This document shows positions 14,862 to 15,143 of a DNA stretch of 32,000 nucleotides, in pieces (positions within the stretch are counted from its first letter, which is position 1; each line of letters opens with the position of its first letter). Made by a program: the position numbers and the translations under genes. The notes beneath the pieces were generated by a model. The model saw nothing but the letters and a program-made list of their open reading frames with translations. It was not told the DNA's origin and did no database searches. Source of the DNA: Candidatus Jordarchaeales archaeon (GTDB lineage Archaea; Asgardarchaeota; Jordiarchaeia; Jordiarchaeales; Freyrarchaeaceae); assembly GCA_038858525.1 (NCBI GenBank), contig JAWCFL010000005.1, positions 30,001 to 62,000 of the forward strand. The letters are read 5' to 3'.

Positions 14862-14946
14862 CGGCCCCGAGGGGATTCGAACCCCCGACACCCGGCTTAG
14901 GAGGCCGGTACCCTCTCAGAACACATCCTGGCTGGGTTACGGGGCC
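14862..14946 (-). tRNA. tRNA-Arg(CCT) with a 10-nt D-loop intron (14915-14924, position 20a/21)
   Basis: GGCCCCG TA ACCC AGCCAGGAT [GTGTTCTGAG] A GGGT A CCGGC CT CCT AA GCCGG GTGTC GGGGG TTCGAAT CCCCT CGGGGCC G. All four stems pair and the mature length is 75 nt. Confidence 0.95.
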
Positions 14947-15046: not shown

Positions 15047-15143
15047 GCGGGCGTAGTCCAGCCTGGTCTAAGACGTCGGCCTGCCACGCCGAGGACCCGG
15101 GCGGCTAACACAAAGCCAGGGACTTCAAATCCCGGCGCCCGCA
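15047..15143 (+). tRNA. tRNA-Gly(GCC) with a 22-nt T-arm intron (15102-15123, position 53/54)
   Basis: GCGGGCG TA GTCC AGCCTGGTCTA AGAC G TCGGC CT GCC AC GCCGA GGAC CCGGG [CGGCTAACACAAAGCCAGGGAC] TTCAAAT CCCGG CGCCCGC A. Confidence 0.95.

What the first reader, a model, noticed from the sequence alone, without database searches (positions are those of the whole stretch)
14915..14924. Extremely short 10-nt intron in the D-loop of tRNA-Arg(CCT)
GTGTTCTGAG must be removed to restore the D-loop CCAGGAT-A-GGGT. The central helix CAGG/TCTG places both cuts exactly two bases into the flanking unpaired segments (AT|G and AG|A). There is no room for an intron-side helix, so the motif is a bulge-helix-loop. 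This is at or below the shortest archaeal tRNA introns I know of, and it implies an endonuclease with relaxed specificity.
Basis: partly seen in the sequence, partly recalled or inferred. Interest (0 to 1): 0.72.

Follow-up and report, generated by a model that had tools for sequence, protein, structure and literature searches.

The report
Ten-base intron in arginine tRNA
The arginine tRNA gene of this hot-spring Asgard archaeon carries a 10-base insert in its D-loop that is almost certainly a protein-spliced mini-intron, the shortest member of a type of intron already described for this group.

Summary
On the minus strand, window 14862-14946 encodes tRNA-Arg(CCU) with a 20-nt D-loop. Removing 14915-14924 (GUGUUCUGAG) gives a clean 74-nt cloverleaf whose D-loop, AGCCAGGAUA, matches that of intron-less orthologues.

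All 11 genomes of the order (the one holding the published Freyarchaeia genome) carry an insert at this site, 10 to 17 nt long. The exon/intron helix CAGG/YCUG and the AR|A bulge are kept while the middle of the insert varies freely. The helix ties up G18-G19, which a mature tRNA needs free, so the insert has to be removed.

The genome encodes a catalytic EndA alpha subunit with the Crenarchaea-type specificity loop, a second EndA that lacks the catalytic His, and RtcB.

The intron reading, the bulge-helix-loop shape and the relaxed endonuclease are therefore supported.

The "shortest" claim holds against a 2014 review (11-129 nt). It is not unique: a sister genus has a second 10-nt case in tRNA-Arg(GCG), and published Freyarchaeia tables list an 11-nt intron at the same site and a doubtful 9-nt call. 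Heavily interrupted Asgard tRNAs and hidden D-arm introns are already published, and other agents of this scan had noted this genome's interrupted tRNAs.

Verdict: a new member of a known kind, of modest interest.

The parts
14862..14946 (-). tRNA-Arg(CCU) gene including the discriminator G (pre-tRNA body 85 nt; no encoded CCA)
   Evidence: Read directly. ARAGORN calls tRNA-Arg(cct) after the 10 nt are removed. Orthologues found in all 11 genomes of the order.
14925..14946 (-). 5' exon (positions 1 to 20a): acceptor 5' strand, U8 A9, D-stem 5' strand ACCC, D-loop part AGCCAGGAU
14915..14924 (-). 10-nt intron GUGUUCUGAG at D-loop position 20a/21
   Evidence: Its removal restores the D-loop AGCCAGGAUA found in compact orthologues. 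These boundaries are the only ones that give that product.
14862..14914 (-). 3' exon: A21, D-stem 3' strand GGGU, anticodon arm, variable loop, T-arm, acceptor 3' strand, discriminator
14927..14930 (-). Central helix, exon strand CAGG (includes the universal G18 G19)
   Evidence: Pairs with UCUG in the minimum-free-energy fold. Conserved in all homologous introns.
14917..14920 (-). Central helix, intron strand UCUG (C-G, A-U, G-C, G-U)
   Evidence: It is CCUG in most relatives, so the G-U pair here is G-C there.
14914..14916 (-). 3' splice-site bulge AG|A, between the central helix and the D-stem
   Evidence: AR|A is conserved in 12 of 13 homologous introns scored (AC|A in G000 Arg-GCG). It faces AGC on the other strand, forming a 3x3 internal loop.
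14921..14926 (-). Loop AU|GUGU carrying the 5' splice site (the 'L' of the bulge-helix-loop); no intron-side helix is possible
   Evidence: The fold adds an A-U pair, leaving a UGUG tetraloop.
14899..14901 (-). Anticodon CCU
15047..15143 (+). Divergent neighbour tRNA-Gly(GCC), with a 22-nt intron at 53/54 (15102-15123). Context only: it shows non-canonical introns are the rule here.
   Evidence: Rfam tRNA 41.8 bits with a long T-arm insertion; spliced alignment

Best explanation
The 10 nt are a protein-spliced tRNA intron of the relaxed bulge-helix-loop type.

In the precursor, exon bases C17-A17a-G18-G19 pair with intron UCUG to form the 4-bp central helix. The 3' cut lies in the AG|A bulge between that helix and the D-stem. 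The 5' cut lies two bases past the helix, in the closing loop AU|GUGU.

The (alpha-beta)2 splicing endonuclease is inferred from a catalytic alpha subunit with the Crenarchaea-type specificity loop plus a non-catalytic second subunit. It would cut both sites, and RtcB would join the exons. This frees G18-G19 for the D-loop/T-loop elbow and leaves the D-loop AGCCAGGAUA.

The intron is the shortest version of an old D-loop intron that four of the five Arg tRNA genes found in this genome carry (three of five in the published Freyarchaeia genome) and that is present in every genome of the order.

Shown here: the sequence anatomy, the comparative conservation and the presence of the enzymes. Inferred: the actual cleavage and ligation, and the subunit arrangement.
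For: 1. Deleting 14915-14924 turns a mis-called gene into a standard tRNA-Arg(cct).

2. Intron-less tRNA-Arg(CCU) genes in other Asgard lineages have D-loops AGCCAGGAUA, AGACAGGAUA or AGUCUGGAUA, which is the predicted splice product.

3. All 11 genomes of the order have an insert at the same place. Lengths are 10 (three species), 11, 11, 14, 15 and 17 (x4). The exon strand CAGG is kept throughout. The intron strand is YCUG in 10 of the 11 and ACUG, 3 of 4 pairs, in the 14-nt Freyarchaeia copy. AR|A is kept in all, while the middle differs in sequence and length. A further lineage (G039) has about 34 nt there.

4. The same architecture occurs in Arg-UCU (12 nt), Arg-GCG (14 nt) and Arg-CCG (16 nt) of this genome. 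It also occurs in the Freyarchaeia Arg-GCG (11 nt) and Arg-UCU (14 nt) genes, where tRNAscan-SE called the inserts as introns in the published table.

5. That table counts 2 introns for the Freyarchaeia Arg-CCU orthologue, although only the T-loop one was auto-called.

6. The gene, intron included, is 100% identical in three species, whereas the 150 nt downstream are 62-64% identical.

7. The minimum-free-energy fold of the precursor is a cloverleaf with exactly this helix on top of the D-stem.

8. The helix sequesters G18-G19, which must pair with the T-loop in any L-shaped tRNA (established tRNA structure; inference).

9. Enzymes are present. EndA alpha matches A. pernix alpha at E 1.6e-48, with the Tyr/His/Lys triad intact and Lys at both positions equivalent to K44 and R46 of the specificity loop. 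The second EndA has lost the catalytic His. RtcB is present. The role of that loop in cutting D-loop and bulge-helix-loop introns is experimental (PMC3241643).
Against: The motif is not a strict hBHBh'. There is no intron-side helix, and the 3' site sits in a 3x3 internal loop rather than a clean bulge.

The helix is conserved rather than covarying. I saw only one-sided changes (G-U/G-C, C-G/U-G) and no double compensatory change.

The fold predicts a fifth A-U pair that would have to open for the 5' cut.

The relaxed motif class arises by chance at many boundaries, according to the 2026 preprint. The argument therefore rests on conservation and on the restored cloverleaf, not on the motif alone.
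Confidence: 0.85

Rival explanations
1. The 10 nt are not removed: the mature tRNA keeps an enlarged D-arm (D-stem, internal loop and a small extra hairpin), perhaps as an Arg-specific feature.
For: The insert occurs in four of the five Arg tRNA genes found in this genome and sits next to A20, a known ArgRS identity position in other organisms (my own knowledge). The extra hairpin is stable in the predicted fold. No RNA data were available.
Against: The hairpin uses G18-G19, which are needed for the tRNA elbow. Length (10 to about 34 nt) and loop sequence vary freely, and only the splice motif is kept. Arg-UCG here, Arg-CCG and Arg-UCG in Freyarchaeia, and Arg-CCU in Odin-type and other Asgard genomes all lack it and have a normal D-loop. 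tRNAscan-SE and curators treat the Freyarchaeia homologues as introns.
Confidence: 0.05
2. It is spliced, but not exactly as drawn: different cut sites giving another D-loop (for example AGCCAGGAGA), or a stepwise or imprecise process.
For: The fold closes the helix with a fifth A-U pair, which puts the proposed 5' cut one base into a tetraloop. The Arg-UCU paralogue is predicted to end with ...GGAG|...|A. Boundaries rest on a rule, not on reads.
Against: Only the stated boundaries obey the two-bases-past-the-helix rule on both sides, and only they reproduce the D-loop of compact orthologues. Neighbouring registers pair 0 to 1 of 4 (my reading of the sequence).
Confidence: 0.07
3. The gene is a decaying pseudogene, or the insert is a sequencing or assembly error.
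For: Automatic tools fail on it.
Against: It is identical in three independently assembled species genomes while the flanks diverge. All stems are intact. It is the only tRNA-Arg(CCU) locus my scan recovered in this genome. Related inserts occur in every genome of the order.
Confidence: 0.03

Closest known systems
D-loop intron of tRNA-Arg(GCG) in the complete Freyarchaeia genome (Valentin-Alvarado et al. 2024, PMC11291895, Supplementary Data 4; G006 here), 11 nt, called by tRNAscan-SE
   Same: Same order, same tRNA family, same site (20a/21), same exon strand CAGG pairing with CCUG, same AA|A bulge, and no intron-side helix.
   Different: It is one base longer, in a different isoacceptor, and has 4/4 Watson-Crick pairs. 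The paper gives it no comment beyond the table.
'Missed' D-arm intervening sequences of Freyr-, Jordi- and Atabeyarchaeaceae tRNAs (Goswami et al. 2026, bioRxiv 10.64898/2026.10.13.758758)
   Same: The same phenomenon in the same families: enlarged D-loops that tRNAscan-SE leaves inside the 'mature' tRNA and that sit at BHB-like boundaries; (alpha-beta)2 EndA is widespread.
   Different: Their census floor is 10 nt and the median length is 22-23 nt. This insert sits exactly at that floor. Their per-intron tables were not available to me.
Bulge-helix-loop and D-loop introns cut by the Aeropyrum pernix (alpha-beta)2 EndA through its Crenarchaea-specific loop (Hirata et al. 2011, PMC3241643)
   Same: Non-canonical position (D-loop), relaxed motif with a loop in place of the second bulge and helix. 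The enzyme here shares the loop and its two basic residues.
   Different: Different phylum, and the tested substrates are longer. No biochemistry exists for the Asgard enzyme.
Archaeal tRNA introns in general (Yoshihisa 2014 review, PMC4090602: 11-129 nt, median 12-25 nt)
   Same: Protein-spliced, BHB-derived motif, EndA plus RtcB pathway.
   Different: One base below the stated lower bound.

Membership tests
Archaeal protein-spliced tRNA intron | Removing it restores a canonical cloverleaf with the conserved tRNA positions | tested here: met
   ARAGORN gives tRNA-Arg(cct), 74 nt, after deletion and a mis-call before. The resulting D-loop equals that of compact orthologues.
Archaeal protein-spliced tRNA intron | 4-bp central helix formed between exon and intron | tested here: met
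   CAGG/UCUG, 4 of 4 pairs including one G-U. It is present in the minimum-free-energy fold.
Archaeal protein-spliced tRNA intron | Both cuts fall two bases 3' of the helix strands, in 3-nt bulges or a loop | tested here: met
   AU|G and AG|A. The same register holds in 12 of 13 homologous inserts scored, and one base along (same product) in the 13th. This is geometry only; the cleavage itself is inferred.
Strict hBHBh' motif | Two 3-nt bulges flanked by an outer and an inner helix | tested here: not met
   Only 3 nt lie between the 5' bulge and the helix strand, so no inner helix is possible. The outer helix (the D-stem) is separated from the central helix by a 3x3 internal loop. The motif is therefore the relaxed bulge-helix-loop class, not strict BHB.
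Archaeal protein-spliced tRNA intron | Intron-less and intron-bearing alleles of the same tRNA occur in related lineages | tested here: met
   Compact Arg-CCU in G011, G015, G022, G032 and G034. Inserts of 10-17 nt in all 11 genomes of the order, and about 34 nt in G039.
Archaeal protein-spliced tRNA intron | The genome encodes a splicing endonuclease able to cut relaxed, non-canonical motifs, and an RNA ligase | tested here: met
   Two PF01974/PF02778 proteins. One is alpha-like with the specificity loop (K and K at the A. pernix K44/R46 positions) and an intact triad; the other lacks the catalytic His. RtcB scores 601 bits. Heterotetramer formation was not tested.
Archaeal protein-spliced tRNA intron | The intron is absent from the mature RNA | not testable with these tools

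The most novel reading that the evidence does not exclude
Ten nucleotides is a real structural floor for this kind of intron. Two genera shrank two different Arg-tRNA introns to the same 10-nt layout: one bulge base, a 3-nt linker, a 4-nt helix strand and 2 bulge bases. A pattern search over 400 Asgard genomes that allowed 6-35 nt at this site found nothing shorter. That would make it a natural minimal substrate, defining how small a loop the Asgard (alpha-beta)2 endonuclease can still read as a 'bulge'.
Probability: 0.3. Interest if true: 0.4.

Novelty: new member of a known kind. Interest (0 to 1): 0.3.

Why it matters
It adds a well-supported extreme case to the recently described, heavily interrupted tRNA genes of Jordi- and Freyrarchaeaceae.

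- The intron is one base below the length range given in the standard review.
- It lacks any intron-side helix.
- It sits exactly at the detection floor of the only motif-free census (10 nt), and standard tools (ARAGORN, Rfam's tRNA model) fail on the gene. Inserts this short can therefore hide a tRNA gene from annotation or lead to an isoacceptor being scored as missing.
- The series of 10 to 17 nt, and about 34 nt in one other lineage, at one site in one tRNA family is a natural deletion series for asking what the broad-specificity endonuclease minimally needs.

It does not reveal a new mechanism.

Tried and rejected
Earlier scan notes that report spliced RNA for other introns of this genome were not re-tested.

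2. Rfam tRNA search of the whole genome. It gave only 5 hits at E <= 0.001 and 14 at E <= 10, too few for a census. ARAGORN with anticodon introns allowed found 9 genes.

3. A T-arm-plus-acceptor regular-expression scan found about 11 genes. blastn-short anchors were too noisy.

4. My own spliced-alignment scan, using compact references from G034 and spliced Freyarchaeia tRNAs. It recovered 24 genes that ARAGORN accepts after splicing, with 51 inserts of 8 nt or more. It is not complete, its boundaries are approximate (it merged two introns in Arg-GCG), and Arg-UCU and several Leu and Ser genes were read by eye only.

5. Supplements of the 2026 preprint are not held. Marck and Grosjean 2003 is not held, so I could not identify the 11-nt record holder of the older literature.

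6. Pattern hits outside the order (G085, G106, G294, G378, G379). I fetched four of them; they are not tRNAs, and they occur at the control rate.

7. The 10-nt tRNAscan-SE call in Freyarchaeia tRNA-Lys(UUU) looks like a mis-parse inside a D-loop intron of about 29 nt. The 9-nt call in tRNA-Ala(CGC) is a species-specific insertion with 3 of 4 helix pairs, absent from four other species of that genus. I count neither as a firm shorter intron.

8. I looked for an alternative outer helix contiguous with the central helix and found none (at most 1 bp).

Full report
**What is there**

The finding's coordinates lie on the minus strand of a tRNA gene. Read 5' to 3' from 14946 to 14862, the gene is: acceptor GGCCCCG, U8 A9, D-stem ACCC, a 20-nt D-loop, D-stem GGGU, A26, anticodon stem CCGGC/GCCGG with loop CUCCUAA (anticodon CCU, Arg), variable loop GUGUC, T-arm GGGGG-UUCGAAU-CCCCU, acceptor CGGGGCC, discriminator G.

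A normal D-loop has 7-11 nt. ARAGORN forces the gene into a false Leu(gag). Rfam's tRNA model does not reach threshold. Deleting 14915-14924 (GUGUUCUGAG) gives a textbook 74-nt tRNA-Arg(cct).

**The organism**

The genome is a 2.09-Mb, 63-contig metagenome-assembled genome, 92.7% complete. The search tools place it in the same order as a 3,576,204-bp closed genome. The tRNA coordinates of that genome match the published Freyarchaeia genome, and another relative matches Atabeyarchaeia-1 (PMC11291895). It is therefore an Asgard archaeon of the Jordi-/Freyrarchaeaceae group, as earlier notes of this scan also say.

Only 5 tRNAs are found by Rfam at E <= 0.001 and 9 by ARAGORN, because nearly all tRNA genes are interrupted. 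This is published. Between 92 and 95% of tRNA genes carry introns in Freya- and Atabeyarchaeia. A 2026 preprint shows that tRNAscan-SE misses 30% of the intervening sequences in these families, half of them in the D-arm. Its length floor is 10 nt and the median length is 22-23 nt.

**Comparative evidence that the 10 nt are an intron**

Intron-less tRNA-Arg(CCU) genes of other Asgard lineages have D-loops AGCCAGGAUA (G032), AGACAGGAUA (G011, G022) and AGUCUGGAUA (G015). The first is exactly the product predicted here.

Every one of the 11 species genomes of the order has an insert at the same point:

| Genomes | Insert length |
|---|---|
| G000, G001, G003 | 10 nt |
| G002 | 11 nt |
| G004 | 11 nt |
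| G006 | 14 nt |
| G005 | 15 nt |
| G007, G008, G009, G010 | 17 nt |

A further lineage, G039, has about 34 nt there.

In all of them the exon strand is CAGG and the insert ends AR before the A that becomes A21. In 10 of the 11 the insert ends with YCUG followed by that AR; the 14-nt Freyarchaeia copy has ACUG, so 3 of 4 pairs. The bases in between share neither length nor sequence.

Scored with the rule 'helix strand, two bases, cut' in one fixed register, 10 of 13 homologous inserts pair 4/4, 2 pair 3/4 and 1 (G000 Arg-CCG) pairs 1/4. That one reaches 3/4 one base along, with the same product.

The changes are one-sided (G-U in this genus versus G-C elsewhere; U-G in one paralogue). The helix is therefore conserved rather than covarying.

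Within the genus, the 88-nt gene with its intron is identical in three species, while the 150 nt downstream are only 62-64% identical. That argues for purifying selection on a working gene and against an assembly error.

**A family of Arg D-loop introns**

The same architecture is present in this genome's tRNA-Arg(UCU) (12 nt), Arg(GCG) (14 nt) and Arg(CCG) (16 nt). Arg(UCG) instead has an intron at 9/10.

In the published Freyarchaeia table, tRNAscan-SE itself calls the homologous inserts of Arg(GCG) (11 nt) and Arg(UCU) (14 nt) as introns. The authors count two introns for Arg(CCU), although only the T-loop one was auto-called.

I ran a pattern search for AGNCAGGAU, 1-30 free bases, then CUGARAGGG over 400 Asgard genomes. 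It found true tRNA hits only in this order, in all 11 genomes. The four hits fetched from elsewhere are not tRNAs and match the control rate. The pattern allowed inserts of 6-35 nt, and the shortest found is 10 nt.

There is a second, independent 10-nt case: tRNA-Arg(GCG) of the sister genus (G004, UAUUCCUGAA). It has the same layout of one bulge base, a 3-nt linker, a 4-nt helix strand and two bulge bases.

**How it most likely works**

The minimum-free-energy fold of the precursor is a cloverleaf. Its D-stem is followed by a 3x3 internal loop (AGC opposite AGA), then the helix CAGG(A)/(U)UCUG, then a small loop.

The 3' cut (AG|A) lies between the helix and the D-stem. The 5' cut (AU|G) lies in the closing loop. 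There is no space for an intron-side helix, so this is the relaxed bulge-helix-loop form. The fifth A-U pair in the fold is specific to this genus and would have to open.

The helix contains G18 and G19. In any L-shaped tRNA these pair with the T-loop. An unspliced molecule could therefore not form the elbow, which is the strongest structural argument that the insert must go (inference from established tRNA structure).

**Enzymes**

Two EndA homologues are encoded, each with both Pfam domains.

- The 191-aa protein matches the catalytic alpha subunit of Aeropyrum pernix EndA (3P1Z_B, E 1.6e-48). It keeps the Tyr/His/Lys triad and has Lys at the positions of K44 and R46 of the Crenarchaea-specific loop.
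- Experiments showed that this loop confers cleavage of D-loop and bulge-helix-loop introns, and that K44 is needed for the loop-side cut (PMC3241643).
- The 198-aa protein aligns with M. jannaschii EndA but has lost the catalytic His, as expected of a structural subunit.
- RtcB is present.

That the two EndA proteins form an (alpha-beta)2 enzyme is inferred, not tested.

**How short is short**

A 2014 review gives 11-129 nt for archaeal tRNA introns and 6-133 nt for eukaryotes.

My own, incomplete spliced-alignment census of this genome validated 24 genes with 51 inserts of 8 nt or more. This insert is the shortest. The next are 12 nt (Arg-UCU, read by eye), then three of 13 nt and three of 14 nt.

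The published Freyarchaeia table holds three shorter or comparable tRNAscan-SE calls:

- A 9-nt call in Ala(CGC). It is a species-specific insertion with 3 of 4 helix pairs, absent from four sister species.
- A 10-nt call in Lys(UUU). It looks like a mis-parse inside a D-loop intron of about 29 nt.
- The 11-nt Arg(GCG) intron described above.

Other notes of this scan report 12-nt mini-introns in DPANN archaea.

The 10-nt intron is therefore at the lower edge of what is documented. It is shared by two genera, and it continues a graded series rather than standing as an isolated oddity.

**What could not be done**

The preprint's per-intron tables and the 2003 Marck and Grosjean survey were not available.

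**Verdict**

Observation confirmed; interpretation supported. The probability that this is an EndA-spliced intron with the stated boundaries is about 0.85. The main rivals are other boundaries (0.07), a retained enlarged D-loop (0.05) and a pseudogene or artefact (0.03). It is a new, extreme member of a known and recently published kind, and its interest is modest.

Noticed in passing
L028:1311-1493 (G007:C104:2128-2310): In one Freyrarchaeaceae species the orthologous tRNA-Arg(CCU) gene is also broken in the anticodon stem by a 183-bp element. The element has 22/24-matching terminal inverted repeats and an 11-bp target duplication (GGGCGCAGGCC). A second copy (93% identical) lies elsewhere in that genome and a 73% relative in the closed Freyarchaeia genome. 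It looks like a small DNA transposon (MITE-like), not a BHB intron.
   Followed up: partly
L115 (G004:C30:24790-24990): tRNA-Arg(GCG) of the sister genus has four inserts, one of them a second 10-nt D-loop intron (UAUUCCUGAA) with the same geometry as the one studied.
   Followed up: yes
G000 C2:~114927-115099 (+), C4:~36016-36140 (+), C4:~38169-38337 (+), C3:~63377-63503 (-): Arg-UCU, Arg-CCG and Arg-GCG of this genome carry 12-, 16- and 14-nt introns at the same D-loop site, plus two to three more introns each. Arg-UCG has an intron at 9/10 instead. The D-loop intron seems to be inherited within the Arg tRNA family.
   Followed up: partly
window 15047-15143 (+): The divergently oriented tRNA-Gly(GCC), about 100 nt away, has a 22-nt intron between the T-stem and T-loop (15102-15123).
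   Followed up: partly
L093 (G006:C1:1725052-1725167): The published 9-nt 'intron' of Freyarchaeia tRNA-Ala(CGC) at 37/38 (UUCAGAAAA) looks like a recent, partly duplicated insertion. Four other species of the genus have an uninterrupted anticodon loop.
   Followed up: partly
G000, 43 places (e.g. C1:139074-139171): The assembly holds 43 runs of 92-100 N, probably scaffold gaps. At least one cuts a tRNA gene (tRNA-Lys(CUU), C1 near 147045), so the tRNA set cannot be completed from this assembly.
   Followed up: no
G000 C3:49448 (-) and C4:42220 (-): tRNA-Ala(UGC) and tRNA-Ala(CGC) are near-identical genes that differ at the anticodon. They share the same two inserts, about 14 and 45 nt in my rough alignment, which suggests recent duplication or gene conversion that included the introns.
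   Followed up: no
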